In this document: positions 1 to 44,355 of the stretch, one piece after another
How the letters are laid out: each line of letters begins with the position of its first letter
Position numbering within the stretch: position 1 is the first letter of the stretch
DNA from: a virus
Direction: 5' to 3' (one strand)
DNA: 44,355 bases
Virus record (IMG/VR): IMGVR_UViG_3300010266_000001
Location: 1 to 44,355 of that record
Translations under genes and position numbers: made by a program
Notes under the pieces: model-generated
Database searches by the model: none
What the model saw: the letters and a program-made list of their open reading frames with translations, nothing else
Told to the model about the DNA's origin: nothing

Positions 1-123
1 CAGTATGAACAAAATTCGCAGGCACAATATGATTACTACAAGGCCGGTAATAGTAGAATAGCCAATAATCATTCCGCCGTGTCCACGGCGGTGTGGTGGT
101 GGCTTCGTTCCCCTTGTTGCTAC
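1..123. repeat. Terminal direct repeat identical to 44233..44355 (overlap of a circular or circularly permuted genome; unique length 44232 bp)
   Basis: Both ends of the window read cagtatgaacaaaattcgcagg...cgttccccttgttgctac. The tail-fibre reading frame continues across the junction without a stop. Confidence 0.95.
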
Positions 124-219
124 GACTACGCTGACTTCTGTGATGTCACTGCGGATGGCGGCGGCACTGACGGTAACGCCAATTACTCTGCTGGTGTGCG
201 GCCCGGCTTTGCCGCCTAA
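1..219 (+). CDS. Tail fibre protein, C-terminal end (continuation of 42598..44355 through the circular junction)
   Basis: Frame 1 is open from base 1 to TAA at 217-219: QYEQNSQAQYDYYKAGNSRIANNHSAVSTAVWWWLRSPCCYDYADFCDVTADGGGTDGNANYSAGVRPGFAA*. This is the same frame as the ORF that runs off the right end. Confidence 0.85.
   Translation, partial: QYEQNSQAQYDYYKAGNSRIANNHSAVSTAVWWWLRSPCCYDYADFCDVTADGGGTDGNANYSAGVRPGFAA
115..189 (+). other. Candidate DGR variable region (VR) core in the tail-fibre C-terminus
   Basis: 25 consecutive codons (tgt tgc tac gac tac gct gac ttc tgt gat gtc act gcg gat ggc ggc ggc act gac ggt aac gcc aat tac tct), 24 of which end in C/T. They are flanked by the conserved scaffold WWWLRSP and AGVRPGF. 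A DGR-type RT gene lies 220 nt downstream of the stop. Confidence 0.6.
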
Positions 220-247: not shown

Positions 248-267
248 CCGCCGCCGAAAGGCGGCGG
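248..267. promoter_or_regulatory. Perfect 8-bp GC stem with GAAA tetraloop, 29 nt after the tail-fibre stop (candidate DGR target-recognition hairpin/cruciform)
   Basis: ccgccgcc-gaaa-ggcggcgg. All 8 pairs are Watson-Crick and there is no U-tail, so it is not a classical terminator. Confidence 0.55.
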
Positions 268-438: not shown

Positions 439-1431
439 ATGGCAACAAACAAGCGTGTTTTCACCTTGCGCCTATCTGATACGGTGTTGGAACAGACTTG
501 GAAGCCCAAATCCTGTTCCCATTTCACCCTTCGGGAACGGGGAAAAATCCGCCCGATAGATGCCCCGCACATTACGGATCGACAAATCCACAAAACCCTG
601 TGTAATGAAGTCCTGATCCCGTTGTATTCACCTTCCATGATCTATGACAACGGGGCAAGCCAAAAGGGAAAGGGCCTTCATTGGCAGTTCAAACGGATCA
701 AACAACAGCTTGGATGGCATTACCGGCGTTATGGCCGGGAAGGTGCTGTGTTGCTGTTGGATTTGAAGGGGTTCTTTCCAAATGCTTCCCATGCCCTGTT
801 ATACCAGCGGCACCGGGAATTGATTTTGAATCCTGAACTTCAAAACTTGGCTGATACTGTGATTCAATATTCCCCATGCCCGACACCGGGCCGGGGGATG
901 CCTTTGGGCGTTGAGCCTTCCCAACAGGAAATGGTGGCGTTACCAAGCAAAATTGACCAATGGATCAAGTGTCAGGCCCGTGTTCATTGCGCCGGTCATT
1001 ACATGGATGATTACTATGCTTTCTTTCCCACGGTGGATGAAGCAAAGCTGATGGGCCATGAAATTGTAAGGCGTTTTGAAGCCGCTGGAATCCGAGTGAA
1101 CAAGCGCAAGTGTAAGGTGATCCCGCTTACAAAGCCGTTCCGGTTCTGCAAAGCCCGGTTCACACTTACCGAAACCGGCAAGATCAAGGTGAATGGAAGC
1201 CGGGATGGAGTGAAACGGGCAAGGCGAAAACTGAAGCTGTTTCACAGGGAGTTCAAAGAGGGAAAACGATCCTTCTTTGACATAGAACAATACATGGAGT
1301 GCCAAAGCGCCTATTACCGGAACTTCAACGATCATGGCCGGTTGTTGCGGTTGCGGCGGCTTTACCATGCAATCTTTTTCGGAGGTGGACAATGTTTAGA
1401 ATCATCAAAGCCGGGGCCGGTATCGGCCTGA
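439..1431 (+). CDS. Reverse transcriptase, diversity-generating retroelement (DGR) class
   Basis: 330 aa. RBS aaggggg lies 7 nt upstream of the ATG. RT motifs occur in order: GKIRPIDAPHITDRQIHKTLCNEVL, KGKGLH, LLLDLKGFFPN, GMPLGVEPSQ (the LGxxxSQ form typical of DGR RTs) and HYMDDYY. Confidence 0.9.
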   Translation: MATNKRVFTLRLSDTVLEQTWKPKSCSHFTLRERGKIRPIDAPHITDRQIHKTLCNEVLIPLYSPSMIYDNGASQKGKGLHWQFKRIKQQLGWHYRRYGREGAVLLLDLKGFFPNASHALLYQRHRELILNPELQNLADTVIQYSPCPTPGRGMPLGVEPSQQEMVALPSKIDQWIKCQARVHCAGHYMDDYYAFFPTVDEAKLMGHEIVRRFEAAGIRVNKRKCKVIPLTKPFRFCKARFTLTETGKIKVNGSRDGVKRARRKLKLFHREFKEGKRSFFDIEQYMECQSAYYRNFNDHGRLLRLRRLYHAIFFGGGQCLESSKPGPVSA

Positions 1432-2000
1432 CCGAGAACCTGAACTACATCAAAAAAGCCGAAAATGGTTGTTACATCCTTTGCCCGGAGCATGACGCTT
1501 CGGGCATTGTTTTTGAGGGTGTGGCTTACCATTTGTTGGGCCGTGCCGCTATGGACGAACTGGAAACGGTGAGTTTGGAGGAAACGGACGCAGGAACCGA
1601 GATCACCAAAGCCACAGAAGCCGGTGGAATCGTCTTTGTCACCTTGGCGGAAGCCGGGAGCATTGACCCCACCACGGCGGCTGAACACGCTGATCTGTTC
1701 GCTGAATGGGCTTTCCCTGTGGCCTACACGGTAGGGCAGATTCGCCGCTACCAAGGCACCCTTTACAAGTGTGTTCAGGCCCACACTTCCCAAGCGGATT
1801 GGACACCCACAGCCGCTTCCAGTTTGTGGAGTAAGACAAATGATCCCGCTGAAGAATGGCCGGAATGGAGCCAACCGGTAGGAGCGCATGACGCTTATTC
1901 CAAGGGGGCAAAAGTGAGCCATAACAGTAAACATTGGGTTTCCACAGCGGACGCCAATGTGTGGGAACCCGGTGTATATGGTTGGGAGGAATCGGCTTAA
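1392..2000 (+). CDS. Fibre-associated protein with two CBM5/12-like carbohydrate-binding repeats
   Basis: RBS ggaggtgg precedes the ATG at 1392. The C-terminal half contains YQGTLYKCVQAHTSQADWTPTAASSLWS and YSKGAKVSHNSKHWVSTADANVWEPGVYGW, which fit the aromatic pattern of CBM5/12. It overlaps the RT 3' end by 40 nt. Confidence 0.65.
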   Translation: MFRIIKAGAGIGLTENLNYIKKAENGCYILCPEHDASGIVFEGVAYHLLGRAAMDELETVSLEETDAGTEITKATEAGGIVFVTLAEAGSIDPTTAAEHADLFAEWAFPVAYTVGQIRRYQGTLYKCVQAHTSQADWTPTAASSLWSKTNDPAEEWPEWSQPVGAHDAYSKGAKVSHNSKHWVSTADANVWEPGVYGWEESA

Positions 2001-5608: not shown

Positions 5609-5827
5609 ATTTGTTCCATATCCGTTCCGCTTAAAATCCTTGCGGGATGTGGCTTTGAGAGAATGGAACACTTGGAACAGATATTATATTACTTCAAAGA
5701 GTAGATAAAAAATATATAAAAGAAAAGGAGTATATAGAGAACCGGCGCTTTATCTGTTCCACCTGTTCCAAAGCCTTGATTTTCCTGTGTTTTCAGGGAT
5801 TGGACGGCGGAACGGATGTGGACAGAT
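5609..5827. repeat. Iteron module A: GGAACAGAT-type 9-mers in convergent pairs around a 69-bp AT-rich core
   Basis: Direct copies at 5665-5671 and 5674-5682. Inverted copies at 5752-5760 and 5761-5769. Degenerate copies at 5612-5617, 5623-5628, 5809-5817 and 5820-5827. Collinear with module B at 22955-23229. Confidence 0.75.
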
Positions 5828-6485
5828 CGAGTTTGGCAAGTTCACCTTTGACCTGTTCCAGAACTTCAGGATATTCAGAATCAGGGTTCATGGAATATTG
5901 ATCTTCGTATTTTTTCAGGGTGTTCAGATACCGGTTCCAATGGGTGGCTTTGGCCTTTGCGGTTTTCAATTCATCAATCTTGGCTTTCTGATCGGAATAG
6001 GAATCTAACAAAACCCGTTCTTTCTGACTATCAGCCGCCTTGAAGAAAGAAGCTGGAAGATCAGATGTGTAAGGGATGATCCCGGCCTTGGCCGCTTGAT
6101 CCACCGTCAGGGCTATTTGCATACCATATTCATAGCGGGAAAAGAATGTTTCAAGGTTCTTCGTCTTTTCAAAGATGTTCAAACAATCTTGAACAATCCG
6201 CATATGGTTTTTGGCTTCTGCTACGGTGTAGGCCCCCGGCATGGATTTAATAGCCCGTTCCGGGTTCAGATTGGAATGAACCTGAACGGTGGGTTCTGTT
6301 TTGGGTGGGGCCTTCTGTTTTGGCTTTCTTTTTCGCAGAAGCAGGAACAGGAAGAACCCCATAATGACATCCATTATGATGAACACGGGGCGGAGTTCTG
6401 GCGCTTCCGTAAAAAACATGATTGTGTAGACGATAAACCCGAAACTGAAAAAGAAGATTCCAAAGCCTTTCAAAAACTTCTTCAT
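5793..6485 (-). CDS. Membrane protein co-transcribed with the repressor (function unknown)
   Basis: RBS gaaggtgg. 230 aa with two N-terminal TM segments (GFGIFFFSFGFIVYTIMFF and VFIIMDVIMGFFLFLLL), a basic linker and a helical soluble domain. It starts 12 nt after the repressor stop. Confidence 0.75.
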   Translation of the reverse strand: MKKFLKGFGIFFFSFGFIVYTIMFFTEAPELRPVFIIMDVIMGFFLFLLLRKRKPKQKAPPKTEPTVQVHSNLNPERAIKSMPGAYTVAEAKNHMRIVQDCLNIFEKTKNLETFFSRYEYGMQIALTVDQAAKAGIIPYTSDLPASFFKAADSQKERVLLDSYSDQKAKIDELKTAKAKATHWNRYLNTLKKYEDQYSMNPDSEYPEVLEQVKGELAKLDLSTSVPPSNP

Positions 6486-7577: not shown

Positions 7578-7736
7578 ATGGAAGTTTGGAAAGAAAACAA
7601 ACAGACGGGCCTTTCTTGTGGGATCAATGACTTTGGTGAATTGTTCCTTGGCAATAAAGGAAGCGGATACAATTTACCCGACACCCCCGAAAATCGTGAA
7701 TATATTTTGAATGATTTTGACTATTGGAATCAATAA
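7578..7736 (+). CDS. Small hypothetical protein (52 aa; below the ORF-track cutoff)
   Basis: RBS ggaaggag lies upstream. ATG at 7578, TAA at 7734-7736: MEVWKENKQTGLSCGINDFGELFLGNKGSGYNLPDTPENREYILNDFDYWNQ. Confidence 0.45.
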   Translation: MEVWKENKQTGLSCGINDFGELFLGNKGSGYNLPDTPENREYILNDFDYWNQ

Positions 7737-7934
7737 GCCGAAACGGGCCTGATGGCCCGTCTACCGGAACCGCCCCACCGGTGCTGATGATGGCAGGGCA
7801 ACAGCGACAACATGAGCGCCCCCGGTTTATGGGTTCGGGTATTGGGTATCAATCCCCATGTAAAAGGTATGACCGCCCGGAAATTGCTTGTTGGGGCTTT
7901 GGCTGTTCTATTTTTGAAGAAAGGATGTGAGCGA

Positions 7935-27540: not shown

Positions 27541-27615
27541 GGCCCGTTAGTCAAGTGGTTAAGACACCGCCCTTTCACGGCGGTAACGCCGGTTCAACCC
27601 CGGCACGGGCTACCA
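27541..27615 (+). tRNA. tRNA-Glu (anticodon TTC), CCA encoded
   Basis: Acceptor ggcccgt/acgggct. Anticodon arm ccgcc-ctttcac-ggcgg, which as far as I recall is the same as the E. coli tRNA-Glu anticodon arm (from memory, not checked). T arm gccgg-ttcaacc-ccggc. Ends with a discriminator A and CCA. Confidence 0.9.
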
Positions 27616-27767: not shown

Positions 27768-27853
27768 GCTGAAGTGCATGGAACAGGCAGACAGGGCGGA
27801 TTCAAAATCCGTTGCCGCAAGGCGTGTGGGTTCAAATCTCACCTTCAGCACCA
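27768..27853 (+). tRNA. tRNA-Leu (anticodon CAA), class II with long variable arm, CCA encoded
   Basis: Acceptor gctgaag/cttcagc. Anticodon arm gcgga-ttcaaaa-tccgt. Variable arm tgccgcaaggcgt. T arm gtggg-ttcaaat-ctcac. Confidence 0.8.
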
Positions 27854-42056: not shown

Positions 42057-42608
42057 ATGGAACGCAAACTGATTGATTATCTTCCCTATGTCATTCGTGA
42101 TTATGCGGAGTTTCAGGGGATCATGGGGAGCGAACAGCCGGAAATTGAAAAGGCGTGGAATACCACGGATGATCTTCTTGATAATCAGTTCATTCCCACC
42201 GCTGGAAACATGGGCCTTTCCCGGTGGGAAAAGATTTTGGGGATCACCCCCAAAGGCACGGACAGTCTTGAAGATCGCCGGTTCCGTATTCTGACCCGGA
42301 TCAATGAAGAACTTCCGTACACCTTGCCCCAGCTTCGGAATATCCTTGAAACGCTGTGCGGGAAGGGAAACTATTCCGCTGATGTGGAAGAAGGCACCTA
42401 TCAGCTTCTTGTGAAAATCGGGTTGGCCGCAAAGAACAACTTCAATGATGTTGAATCTTTGCTGAACCGGGTTGTTCCCCAAAACATGGTTGTGACCTTG
42501 CTTCAGCTTTATAACACCCATGCGGAACTTGGGCGGTTCACCCATGCCCAGCTTGCCGCCTATACCCATAATCAGTTGAGAAACGAGGTTTTGAAGAATG
42601 GCGAATAA
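42057..42608 (+). CDS. Tail protein XkdU-like (DUF2313)
   Basis: LIDYLPYVIRDYAEFQGIM...TAGNMGLSRWEKILGITPKGTDSLEDRRFRILTRI. Confidence 0.85.
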   Translation: MERKLIDYLPYVIRDYAEFQGIMGSEQPEIEKAWNTTDDLLDNQFIPTAGNMGLSRWEKILGITPKGTDSLEDRRFRILTRINEELPYTLPQLRNILETLCGKGNYSADVEEGTYQLLVKIGLAAKNNFNDVESLLNRVVPQNMVVTLLQLYNTHAELGRFTHAQLAAYTHNQLRNEVLKNGE

Positions 42609-44355
42609 AACAACCAACTACAAGCTGACTAAACCCCTTGAATCTGAATTTTATGATGTAGGGGTTCAGAATGAAAACATGGATAAGATTGATACCCAAA
42701 TGAAGGCCAATGCGGATGCCGTTGAAGCCCTTCAGAAAGGTCAATCCGGGAAGGCTGATCTGGTGGATGGTAAGGTTCCCGCCGAACAGCTTCCCAACAT
42801 GAACTATGATCCCAAAGGTACGGCCCAAAACAAGGTGAGCGAACACAACCTTGATCAGACCGCCCACCCGTATCTGTTGAACCAGATCGGAACCTGTGTG
42901 GAAGCCGCACAGAACGCACAGGATGCCGCAAATGCGGCCTTGGATGCTGTGTCCGGTATCGTCTATACCATCAATGTTCTTCCTTCGCAGAATGGCACCC
43001 TGACCTATAACGGACAGGCCCAAAGCCCTTCTTGGAACGCTTATAACCCCGATGCGCTGACCTTGGGCGGCGTGACTACCGGCACCAATGCGGGAACCTA
43101 CACGGCCACTTTCACACCCAAGGGGCAGTATAAATGGGCAGACGGTACGCAGACCGCCAAGGAAGTGACTTGGACGATCAACGCCGCCACAATGACGATC
43201 CCCACGCAGAGCAACAGCCTTACTTATACCGGTTCGGCCCAAAGCCCCACTTGGAACAACTATGACAGCGGGAAAATGACGCTTGGAGGAACTACCAGCG
43301 GCACGAACGCCGGTTCCTACAATGCCACCTTCACGCCGAAAACGAACTACAAGTGGGCTGATGGAAGCACCGGGGCCAAGACGGTTGCTTGGAGCATTGC
43401 CAAGGCCGCTGGTAGTTTGTCTTTGAATAAGACTTCCATCAAACTGACCGCCGCAAAAACCACGGACACCATCACCGTGACAAGGGCGGGTGATGGTAAG
43501 ATTACGGCCACTTCCAGCGCCCCCACGGTGGCTTCTGTGAGTGTTTCCGGTTCGGTGGTAACTGTTACCGCCAAGGCCAAAGGAAACGCTACAATCACCG
43601 TCAGAGTGGCCGCTGGCACCAACCACACGGCCCCGGCCAATAAGACCTGTTCCGTTGAAGTGACATTGCCCACCAAGGTTCTGAACGATAACAGTTGGGC
43701 AACCATCCGGGAAGTCAGTTCCGCAGGTTTGGGGGCCAACTATTGGGCCGTTGGTGATGTGAAGTCTATCATTCTGAACGGCGCTGTGGTTGGCTATACC
43801 TTCAGCAACTTGACCGTGAACGCCTTCATTTTGGGCTTCAATCACAATTCCGCCAAGGAAGGTGCGAACAAGATTCATTTCCAGATTGGAAAGATCGGCA
43901 CCACGCCGGTTGCCCTGTGTGACAGTCAGTATAATAATTATGGCAGTTCGGCGGGTTTCAGGATGAACACCAGCAACACCAACAGCGGTGGTTGGAACGG
44001 TTCTTATATGCGGAAAACCGTTTTGGGCAACACCAACACCCCCACAAACCCCTTGGCAAACAGCTTGATGGCGGCGCTTCCGTCTGACCTTCGTGCTGTG
44101 ATGCAACCCGTAACCAAGTACACCGACAACACGGGCAATTCCAGCAACAGTTCCGGTAATGTCACAGCTACCACCGATTACCTGTTCTTGCTGGCTGAAT
44201 TTGAAGTGTTTGGAACCCGTTCTGGTGCAAACCAGTATGAACAAAATTCGCAGGCACAATATGATTACTACAAGGCCGGTAATAGTAGAATAGCCAATAA
44301 TCATTCCGCCGTGTCCACGGCGGTGTGGTGGTGGCTTCGTTCCCCTTGTTGCTAC
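42598..44355 (+). CDS. Tail fibre / receptor-binding protein (runs off the window end and continues at 1..219; total 658 aa when the overlap is counted once)
   Basis: ATG at 42598. N-terminal MANKTTNYKLTKPLESEFYDVGVQNENMDKID (XkdV-like). Two 73-aa MBG-like repeats (43000-43410), a Big_2-like Ig domain, then a C-terminal ...LFLLAEFEVFG...WWWLRSP... domain. Confidence 0.85.
   Translation, partial: MANKTTNYKLTKPLESEFYDVGVQNENMDKIDTQMKANADAVEALQKGQSGKADLVDGKVPAEQLPNMNYDPKGTAQNKVSEHNLDQTAHPYLLNQIGTCVEAAQNAQDAANAALDAVSGIVYTINVLPSQNGTLTYNGQAQSPSWNAYNPDALTLGGVTTGTNAGTYTATFTPKGQYKWADGTQTAKEVTWTINAATMTIPTQSNSLTYTGSAQSPTWNNYDSGKMTLGGTTSGTNAGSYNATFTPKTNYKWADGSTGAKTVAWSIAKAAGSLSLNKTSIKLTAAKTTDTITVTRAGDGKITATSSAPTVASVSVSGSVVTVTAKAKGNATITVRVAAGTNHTAPANKTCSVEVTLPTKVLNDNSWATIREVSSAGLGANYWAVGDVKSIILNGAVVGYTFSNLTVNAFILGFNHNSAKEGANKIHFQIGKIGTTPVALCDSQYNNYGSSAGFRMNTSNTNSGGWNGSYMRKTVLGNTNTPTNPLANSLMAALPSDLRAVMQPVTKYTDNTGNSSNSSGNVTATTDYLFLLAEFEVFGTRSGANQYEQNSQAQYDYYKAGNSRIANNHSAVSTAVWWWLRSPCCY
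44233..44355. repeat. Right copy of the 123-bp terminal repeat
   Basis: Identical to bases 1-123. Confidence 0.95.

What the first reader, a model, noticed from the sequence alone, without database searches (positions are those of the whole stretch)
439..1431. DGR-class reverse transcriptase directly downstream of the tail-fibre gene
The 330-aa ORF carries the RT motifs in order: GKIRPIDAPHITDRQIHKTLCNEVL, KGKGLH, LLLDLKGFFPN, GMPLGVEPSQ and HYMDDYY. Two features match those used to separate DGR RTs from other bacterial RT classes. One is the LGxxxSQ version of motif 4, where group II intron and retron RTs have SP. The other is the RPIxxPxxxDRxxH block. The gene starts 220 nt after the tail-fibre stop on the same strand, inside an otherwise ordinary PBSX-like tail/lysis region. 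The region before the first RT motif is short (about 34 aa). The 3' end overlaps the next gene by 40 nt.
Basis: partly seen in the sequence, partly recalled or inferred. Interest (0 to 1): 0.8.

Follow-up and report, generated by a model that had tools for sequence, protein, structure and literature searches.

The report
Deletion-truncated DGR reverse transcriptase remnant
The gene is a genuine diversity-generating-retroelement (DGR) reverse transcriptase, but in this gut phage a 1.2-kb deletion removed its front end, its helper gene and its template, leaving a disabled relic beside a tail-fibre tip that was once hypermutated.

Summary
The ORF at 439-1431 and its RT motifs are real. Sequence and predicted fold place it closest to the Bordetella phage DGR reverse transcriptase. 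The window, however, contains no template repeat and no accessory gene. In about 40 related IMG/VR contigs, and in cultured Faecalibacterium phage FP_Taranis, the same site holds a full cassette: DUF6273 tail fibre with VR, hairpin, 62-aa Arc-like gene, 153-aa basic four-helix-bundle gene in the Avd position, TR, then a 390-aa RT. The window lacks exactly 1,237 nt of this. Codon 14 of the Arc-like gene is fused in frame to codon 75 of the RT, which explains the "short N-terminus": aa 1-14 are not RT sequence. The missing 74 residues are conserved in intact homologues and appear to correspond to the Avd-binding N-terminal subdomain of bRT. The window's fibre 3' end (87-210) differs from a relative's TR at 22 positions, 21 of them TR adenines, so it was written by a DGR that is now gone. 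The fused allele was found in one sample only; the intact allele is on at least 1000 contigs. Verdict: a decayed member of a known DGR lineage, with modest interest.

The parts
42598..44355 (+). 5' and central part of the DGR target gene (tail-fibre-like, 617 aa in all). It continues at window 1-219 because the window is circularly permuted; 44233-44355 duplicates 1-123.
   Evidence: The reading frame was walked back on the circularised sequence. The terminal duplication was found. The protein matches phrog_37900 and tail phrogs via homologue L004. It follows the baseplate J and gp48-like genes.
1..219 (+). 3' end of the target gene, encoding the C-terminal part of the DUF6273 domain; stop codon at 217-219.
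   Evidence: Pfam DUF6273 at E 3e-10 for the translation of 1-219. FP_Taranis gp68, a DUF6273 protein, is annotated as 'DGR target'.
87..210 (+). Variable repeat (VR), now orphaned because no TR is left in this genome.
   Evidence: Compared with the TR of relative L028 (5415-5538) there are 22 mismatches over 124 nt, 21 of them at TR adenines and 1 elsewhere. No partner repeat exists in the window.
248..267 (+). GC-rich hairpin/cruciform, CCGCCGCC-GAAA-GGCGGCGG (8-bp stem, GAAA loop), about 37 nt after the end of TR/VR homology. This is the DGR target-recognition element type.
   Evidence: The fold gives z -3.2 with this stem in both the MFE and centroid structures. It matches the 7-10 bp GC stem plus GRNA tetraloop consensus of phage DGR targets (PMC3240598).
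301..329 (+). Second hairpin, GGCGGC-GTAA-GCCGCC, followed by a T-run; probably the terminator of the fibre gene.
   Evidence: The function is inferred.
439..480 (+). First 14 codons (MATNKRVFTLRLSD) of the Arc-like ribbon-helix-helix gene of the intact cassette, with its RBS. This now forms the N-terminus of the fused ORF.
   Evidence: The stretch is identical to the start of the 62-aa ORF at L004 4722-4910, which hits Arc-like phrog_582 at E 5e-6 and Pfam RHH_7 at E 3e-4, below the Pfam cut-off. FP_Taranis gp69 is annotated 'Arc-like repressor' and is 84% identical.
480..481 (+). Deletion junction. In relatives, 1,237 nt lie between these two bases (L004 4764-6000): the rest of the Arc-like gene, the 153-aa Avd-position gene, the TR, the spacer and RT codons 1-74.
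   Evidence: blastn against 80 relatives, the sequence read and the gap-length census, in which 34 loci have 1237 nt. There is no microhomology at the junction.
481..1431 (+). RT remnant: codons 75-390 of the intact 390-aa DGR RT plus the stop codon.
   Evidence: 100% identical to residues 75-390 of the L004 RT. Pfam RVT_1. Alignment to bRT residues 71-290.
1392..2000 (+). Downstream neighbour, a 202-aa protein with CBM_5_12 domains. It overlaps the RT by 40 nt, is conserved next to intact cassettes, and is not part of the DGR.
   Evidence: Pfam CBM_5_12 at E 7e-16. It is syntenic in relatives.

Best explanation
The ORF is the remnant of a Taranis-type phage DGR reverse transcriptase. The ancestral cassette ran: tail-fibre target with VR, hairpin, Arc-like gene, basic four-helix-bundle accessory gene, TR, spacer RNA region, then a 390-aa RT. 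In that cassette the RT copies TR RNA into cDNA, misincorporating opposite adenines, and the cDNA overwrites the VR so that the fibre tip varies. In this genome a single 1,237-nt deletion with blunt ends at codon boundaries fused codon 14 of the Arc-like gene to codon 75 of the RT. It removed the accessory gene, the TR, the spacer and the RT's N-terminal subdomain. The fused ORF keeps an RBS and the catalytic motifs, but it has no template, no partner protein and no N-terminal extension, so the element cannot diversify the fibre in cis. The VR is a frozen record of past mutagenesis. The following are shown directly: the deletion and its exact end points, the absence of TR and accessory gene, and the adenine-specific TR/VR signature. 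Loss of activity is inferred from BPP-1 biochemistry, and the polarity (deletion, not insertion in the others) is inferred from the completeness and conservation of the longer form.
For: Relatives carry 1,237 nt between window positions 480 and 481: 34 loci have exactly this length, and only the window's own allele has 0. The L004 reading shows an Arc-like ORF starting MATNKRVFTLRLSD, then ORF153, the TR and a 390-aa RT; the breakpoints are L004 4763|4764 and 6000|6001, both at codon boundaries. tblastn and blastn find none of the deleted genes anywhere else in the window, and an adenine-wildcard diagonal scan of the whole genome finds no TR. The window VR differs from the L028 TR at 22 positions, 21 of them TR adenines. 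The population is actively diversified: in 25 loci there are 344 adenine-site versus 19 other mismatches between own TR and own VR, and for the commonest TR 32 of 32 adenine columns vary against 2 of 86 others. FP_Taranis has the same gene order, and 15 of its 16 TR/VR mismatches are at adenines (PMC5883640). Homologues are 384-413 aa, and the N-terminal 74 residues are nearly invariant among them. AF2 places helices 18-43, 47-50, 53-63 and 73-92 of P0003 upstream of the breakpoint at residue 90. The bRT NTE binds Avd and positions the template:primer duplex, and Avd is required for catalysis (bioRxiv 10.1101/2023.10.23.563531). An independent Logan assembly of SRR5190361 has the same junction in mid-contig.
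Against: Reads were not available, so the deletion allele's frequency within the sample is unknown, and both assemblies that show it come from one sample. The junction 30-mer is absent from IMG/VR and from JGI metagenome contigs. Loss of RT activity is inferred and not measured. The AF2 model of the RT is only moderate (pLDDT 66). The Avd identity of ORF153 rests on position, pI 9.5 and a weak fold match (2gsc, E 0.018). One VR difference between the two assemblies at an adenine site hints that the VR may not be completely static in that sample.
Confidence: 0.88

Rival explanations
1. This is an intact, working DGR RT that naturally has a compact N-terminus, using a TR that is too diverged or too distant to detect.
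For: All catalytic motifs are intact, the frame is open and an RBS is present. DGRs without avd exist (architecture A, 29% of DGRs; PMC5758913).
Against: Residues 1-14 are identical to the start of a different gene, the Arc-like one. No TR is detectable even with adenines treated as wildcards. All other homologues are about 60 aa or more longer and have a conserved N-terminus. The allele was found in one sample, against at least 1000 contigs for the intact form.
Confidence: 0.02
2. The deletion is an assembly or library artefact (a chimeric join), and the real phage in the sample has the intact cassette.
For: DGR repeats clearly disturb assemblies of this lineage. Many IMG/VR contigs end at the VR or the TR, and some collapse VR onto TR. 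The allele is known from a single sample.
Against: The two breakpoints share no sequence, so a k-mer graph could not join them without reads that span the junction. Two different assemblies, ENA and Logan, give the same junction inside 44-kb contigs. The breakpoints are not at the TR/VR repeat.
Confidence: 0.07
3. The cassette is deleted, but the orphan VR is still diversified in trans by an intact, co-resident relative that supplies RT, accessory protein and TR RNA. This differs from the best explanation only on whether the VR is frozen.
For: The VR 3' end and the GC hairpin with GAAA loop are retained. In BPP-1, avd-TR-brt supplied from a plasmid complement a phage deleted for them (PMC3240598; PMC5758913). 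The only difference between the two assemblies over 6,993 nt is at window 124, a TR-adenine position in the VR, with a chance of roughly 0.5%. Intact relatives are very common in gut samples.
Against: This is a single polymorphic site that could be an ordinary transition or could pre-date the deletion. There is no evidence that an intact relative with a matching TR is present in the same sample or the same cell.
Confidence: 0.15
4. The truncated Arc-RT fusion has been co-opted for another RT function, for example abortive-infection-type defence or untemplated synthesis.
For: There are weak PADLOC/NCBIfam similarities to defence RTs: UG17 at 5e-8 and Drt3a at 2.5e-6. The ORF is still open.
Against: Those hits are generic RT-core similarity, far below the family cut-offs (21 bits against 200 for Drt3a). 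The intact allele gives the same hits. The allele is rare and shows no sequence change after the deletion, being 100% identical to the intact allele over aa 15-330. No ncRNA or effector partner is nearby.
Confidence: 0.02

Closest known systems
DGR of Faecalibacterium phage FP_Taranis (Taranisvirus; Cornuault et al. 2018, PMC5883640), and the related phages Pioen and Roos
   Same: Gene order is the same in the intact relatives of the window: DUF6273 target with 3' VR, Arc-like gene, a 152/153-aa gene, TR, then a 390/393-aa RT. Amino-acid identity is 68% for the RT, 75% for the accessory-position protein, 84% for Arc-like and 57% for the target. TR/VR mismatches are adenine-specific.
   Different: The window has lost most of the Arc-like gene, the whole 153-aa gene, the TR, the spacer and RT residues 1-74. 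The host is probably Dysosmobacter/Oscillospiraceae and not Faecalibacterium, judging by the name a source gives the identical intact protein.
Bordetella phage BPP-1 DGR (mtd-avd-TR-brt; bRT-Avd-RNA structures 8ub7 to 8ubf)
   Same: It is the best sequence and fold match of the RT among solved structures, and it shares the [I/L]GxxxSQ motif. The target is a tail fibre with a 3' VR followed by an 8-bp GC hairpin with a GAAA loop. The intact relatives have the avd-TR-RT type order.
   Different: Fold-level alignment gives only about 18% identity. The target domain is DUF6273 and not Mtd. There is an extra Arc-like gene. The accessory protein has no detectable sequence similarity to Avd. In the window, the parts that BPP-1 work shows to be essential (Avd, TR/Sp RNA, NTE) are absent.
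Group II intron reverse transcriptases (e.g. GsI-IIC RT, 6ar1/6ar3)
   Same: They are the next-best fold matches and share the RT core with an N-terminal extension. TIGR04416 gives weak similarity at E 3e-12.
   Different: The score of 46.5 bits is far below the 300-bit cut-off. There is no maturase or endonuclease domain, and no group II intron RNA is found in the window by Rfam.

Membership tests
Diversity-generating retroelement (DGR) | Reverse transcriptase of the DGR clade (closest to bRT; motif 4 [I/L/V]GxxxSQ) | tested here: met
   Best PDB sequence hit is 8ub7_A at E 1.8e-6, with IPIGSLTSQ aligned to MPLGVEPSQ. The best Foldseek hit of the intact homologue is 8ub7_A at E 3e-8 and TMt 0.67, only slightly ahead of group II RTs. 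No curated RT-class phylogeny was run.
Diversity-generating retroelement (DGR) | A template repeat (TR) near the RT | tested here: not met
   BLAST and whole-genome adenine-wildcard diagonal scans, on the same and opposite strands, find no TR in the window. Relatives have one 240 nt upstream of the RT start.
Diversity-generating retroelement (DGR) | A VR at the 3' end of a target gene that differs from the TR almost only at TR adenines | tested here: met
   Window 87-210 against the L028 TR gives 21 of 22 mismatches at adenines. The TR used for this test is from a relative, not from the window.
Diversity-generating retroelement (DGR) | An accessory gene (avd, HRDC, MSL or CH1) in the cassette | tested here: not met
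   Nothing in the window resembles ORF153. In relatives ORF153 is a basic (pI 9.5) four-helix bundle (AF2 pLDDT 83) whose best PDB match is 2gsc, a PF05635/Avd-family representative, but only at E 0.018. It has no Pfam or NCBIfam hit, so its Avd homology is itself inconclusive.
Diversity-generating retroelement (DGR) | A GC-rich hairpin/cruciform with a GRNA tetraloop just downstream of the VR | tested here: met
   An 8-bp GC stem with a GAAA loop lies at 248-267. The consensus is from PMC3240598. The distance of about 37 nt is just beyond the 4-34 bp range listed there.
Diversity-generating retroelement (DGR) | A complete RT including the N-terminal extension that binds the accessory protein | tested here: not met
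   74 native residues are replaced by 14 residues of the Arc-like protein. The role of the NTE is taken from the bRT structure paper.
Diversity-generating retroelement (DGR) | Ongoing mutagenic retrohoming (VR heterogeneity in reads) | not testable with these tools
   Reads are not available. The only hint is the G/A difference at window 124 between two assemblies.
Group II intron RT/maturase | Score above the TIGR04416 cut-off, plus an intron RNA | tested here: not met
   46.5 bits against a cut-off of 300. Rfam finds no group II intron in the window.
Defence RTs (retron, DRT/UG, Abi) | A specific family model match and an associated ncRNA or effector | tested here: not met
   The best specific PADLOC hits are RT_UG17 at 5.5e-8 and Drt3a at 2.5e-6, as partial core matches. 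NCBIfam Drt3a scores 21 bits against a cut-off of 200. Rfam finds no retron msr/msd.

The most novel reading that the evidence does not exclude
Deletions that switch off the DGR may recur in this abundant gut-phage lineage and be selected to lock a successful receptor-binding tip. Three different alleles each remove the RT 5' end: the window, L022 and L070. The orphan VR keeps its cis signals, so it could be re-diversified in trans when an intact relative co-infects. That would amount to a natural on/off polymorphism of targeted hypermutation.
Probability: 0.15. Interest if true: 0.55.

Novelty: new member of a known kind. Interest (0 to 1): 0.3.

Why it matters
For annotation, an RT ORF with perfect motifs beside a fibre gene would be called an active DGR, yet here the hypermutation machinery is dead and the ORF is a gene fusion. 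For biology, this is a clean natural example of DGR loss with exactly known end points, in a lineage where the intact system is demonstrably active. Such alleles are what theory on the cost of hypermutation in stable environments predicts (bioRxiv 10.64898/2026.02.18.706561). With read data they could be used to measure how often phage populations turn diversification off. Beyond that, the system itself is a known type.

Tried and rejected
I searched for a TR in the window by generic repeat finding, sensitive blastn and adenine/thymine-wildcard scans on all diagonals and on the opposite strand. None was found.

The L004 TR was tested as the source of the window's VR and rejected because of 31 non-adenine mismatches. 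The L028-type TR fits.

The exact junction 30-mer has 0 hits in IMG/VR and in JGI metagenome contigs, so there is no independent-sample support.

I looked for microhomology at the window junction and found none.

For ORF153, Pfam, NCBIfam and a PDB sequence search gave nothing useful. Only the fold search gave a weak Avd-family lead.

I considered that the longer form in relatives might be an insertion (a mobile element) into a short RT gene. This was rejected for three reasons: the extra DNA encodes the conserved RT N-terminus, a complete Arc-like fold and the TR that matches the VR, and the same layout is present in FP_Taranis at 68% RT identity.

I tested whether cassette loss is common by fetching loci through the downstream CBM gene. 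Nearly all contigs that span the cassette are intact, so loss is rare.

A literature search for the [I/L]GxxxSQ criterion in Wu et al. 2018 found no such wording. That criterion therefore rests on the alignment to bRT and on prior knowledge.

Full report
**Observation.** The 330-aa ORF at 439-1431 (+) exists as described. It has an ATG start behind a GAAGGGGG ribosome-binding site, and all five quoted motifs are present in order. It passes Pfam RVT_1 (E 2e-12) and matches the phage RT family phrog_1423 (E 5e-65). The window is circularly permuted, because 1-123 equals 44233-44355. The gene that ends at 219 starts at 42598 and encodes a 617-aa fibre-like protein with a C-terminal DUF6273 domain. 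It follows tape-measure, baseplate-wedge, baseplate-J and gp48-like genes. Downstream lie a CBM5/12 protein that overlaps the RT by 40 nt, small membrane-type ORFs and an amidase endolysin.

**Class of the RT.** The closest solved structure by sequence is 8ub7_A, the BPP-1 DGR RT, at E 1.8e-6. Its IPIGSLTSQ motif aligns with the window's MPLGVEPSQ. An AF2 model of the intact homologue (moderate quality, pLDDT 66) also hits 8ub7_A first (E 3e-8, TMt 0.67), with group II intron RTs close behind. Matches to group II, DRT/UG and retron models are generic and far below their cut-offs.

**What is missing.** A DGR needs a template repeat, and none exists in this 44.2-kb genome. Repeat finding, sensitive blastn and scans that treat TR adenines as wildcards on every diagonal and both strands gave only background.

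**The explanation from relatives.**
- Eighty IMG/VR contigs encode near-identical RTs, but tblastn always starts at residue 15.
- blastn shows that window 42598-480 and 481-2400 are collinear with these contigs, except that the contigs carry extra DNA between 480 and 481. In 34 loci this is exactly 1,237 nt.
- In L004 that region reads as follows: fibre stop; GC hairpin; a 62-aa Arc-like ribbon-helix-helix ORF beginning MATNKRVFTLRLSD; a 153-aa ORF; a 124-nt copy of the fibre's 3' end; a 240-nt spacer; and a 390-aa RT.
- The window joins the last base of Arc codon 14 to the first base of RT codon 75. No microhomology is present.
- Residues 15-330 of the window protein are 100% identical to residues 75-390 of the intact RT, and nothing resembling the deleted genes is found elsewhere in the window.

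**Polarity.** The long form is the ancestral one, for four reasons.
- It contains a complete Arc-like fold and the RT N-terminus.
- That N-terminus is nearly invariant across homologues of 74-100% identity, all of which are 384-413 aa long.
- The same order, with a 393-aa RT, is present in cultured Faecalibacterium phage FP_Taranis. There gp68 is annotated as the DGR target, and 15 of 16 TR/VR mismatches are at adenines (PMC5883640).
- The window's own fibre end (87-210) differs from the TR of relative L028 at 22 positions, 21 of them TR adenines. It was therefore written by a DGR with a TR the window no longer has.

**Activity in the lineage.** The lineage's DGR is clearly active. Across 25 loci there are 344 adenine-site mismatches against 19 others between each locus's own TR and VR. 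For the commonest TR, all 32 adenine columns vary among 10 distinct VRs, against 2 of 86 other columns.

**Consequences.**
[quoted passage not shown] Avd is required for catalysis, and the spacer RNA envelops the RT and supplies the primer (bioRxiv 10.1101/2023.10.23.563531).
- The AF2 model places four helices (P0003 residues 18-92) before the breakpoint at residue 90. Most of the counterpart of that subdomain is therefore gone, along with the TR, the spacer and the 153-aa gene.
- The 153-aa protein sits in the Avd position and has pI 9.5, the average reported for Avd proteins (PMC5758913). It models as a confident four-helix bundle (pLDDT 83).
- Its best PDB match is 2gsc (E 0.018, TMt 0.61-0.66), which is a PF05635 representative considered homologous to Avd (PMC10053308). 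I regard it as the likely Avd equivalent, but this is not proven.
- I infer that the window's element cannot perform mutagenic retrohoming in cis and that its VR is frozen.

**Is the deletion real, and how common is it?**
- The exact 330-aa fusion protein occurs in one sample, SRR5190361. ENA and Logan assemblies both place the junction inside 44-kb contigs.
- The breakpoints share no sequence, so a graph assembler would need junction-spanning reads to join them.
- The junction is absent from IMG/VR and from JGI metagenome contigs.
- The identical intact protein is on at least 1000 contigs, and one source names it as a Dysosmobacter sp. protein.
- Loci fetched through the downstream CBM gene, which does not select on the RT, are almost all intact.
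- The allele is therefore rare, and read mapping is needed to exclude an artefact.

**Side observations that bear on the mechanism.**
- The VR's cis elements remain. An 8-bp GC stem with a GAAA loop lies at 248-267, matching the consensus for phage DGR targets. BPP-1 avd-TR-brt work in trans (PMC3240598).
- The only difference between the window and the Logan contig over 6,993 nt is G/A at window 124. This is a TR-adenine position in the VR, and it is exactly where the window's terminal duplication ends. It may reflect VR heterogeneity in the sample.
- Two other contigs carry different deletions that also remove the RT 5' end. L022 lacks L004 5527-5855. L070 lacks 5661-6078 and has 7 nt of microhomology at its junction.
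- Together these keep open a modest possibility of recurrent DGR switch-off and trans-rescue, but the numbers are small.

**Comparison and novelty.** Functionally and by descent this is a Taranis-type, BPP-1-like phage DGR (target-accessory-TR-RT) with an additional conserved Arc-like gene. As it stands in the window it fails three defining features of a DGR: it has no TR, no accessory gene and an incomplete RT. It should be annotated as a DGR remnant with an orphan VR. The kind is known, and the deletion allele is a new but unsurprising member. Inactivation of DGRs by RT-impairing mutations, and loss under stable conditions, are already discussed in the literature.

Noticed in passing
window 124 (inside the VR); L081 position 2686: This is the only mismatch between the window and the independent Logan assembly over 6,993 nt (G versus A). 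It falls on a TR-adenine position of the VR and on the first base after the window's terminal duplication. It suggests VR heterogeneity in the sample and an assembly-graph branch at that point.
   Followed up: partly
L022 5830-5885; L070 5985-6040 (the same contig as L098): Two other IMG/VR contigs carry different internal deletions of the cassette that also remove the RT 5' end. L022 lacks L004 5527-5855 (TR 3' end to RT codon 26). L070 lacks L004 5661-6078 (spacer to RT codon 100) and has a 7-nt GATGCCC microhomology at its junction.
   Followed up: partly
L025, L030, L113, L141 (about 5346-5538 in L025/L030): In these contigs the fibre 3' end runs straight into TR-downstream sequence, skipping the Arc-like gene and ORF153. 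This is either an assembly collapse of VR onto TR or real VR-TR recombination. Many other contigs simply end at the VR or the TR.
   Followed up: no
L004 4722-4910; FP_Taranis gp69 (L082 2741-2926): A 61/62-aa Arc-like ribbon-helix-helix gene sits between the DGR target and the accessory-position gene and is conserved at 84% aa identity between this lineage and FP_Taranis. It is not among the four accessory gene classes (avd, HRDC, MSL, CH1) of Wu et al. 2018 and could be a regulator of the cassette. In more distant relatives (L108, L137, L139 and others) this interval is not alignable.
   Followed up: partly
window 7736-7802 (+): Rfam Hammerhead_II ribozyme match above the gathering score (42.6 bits against 37, E 1.6e-5), covering the full model.
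   Followed up: no
window 27541-27612 and 27768-27850 (+): Two tRNA genes according to Rfam (65.8 and 39.7 bits).
   Followed up: no
window 42986-43174 and 43205-43393: There is an internal tandem duplication, 64% identical over 189 nt, inside the fibre gene. It corresponds to the repeated '...GTNAG(T/S)Y(T/N)ATFTPK..YKWADG...' segments, probably duplicated Ig-like domains.
   Followed up: no
proteins P0033 (515 aa) and P0016 (491 aa): Some database proteins fuse this RT with another domain: P0033 (a 335-member cluster) with DUF6273, and P0016 with PF02498. They sit on short contigs and may be products of VR/TR assembly collapse or of gene-calling across the cassette.
   Followed up: no
window 1-123 and 44233-44355: An exact 123-nt terminal duplication shows that the window is a circularised or circularly permuted assembly of 44,232 unique bases, cut inside the fibre gene.
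   Followed up: yes
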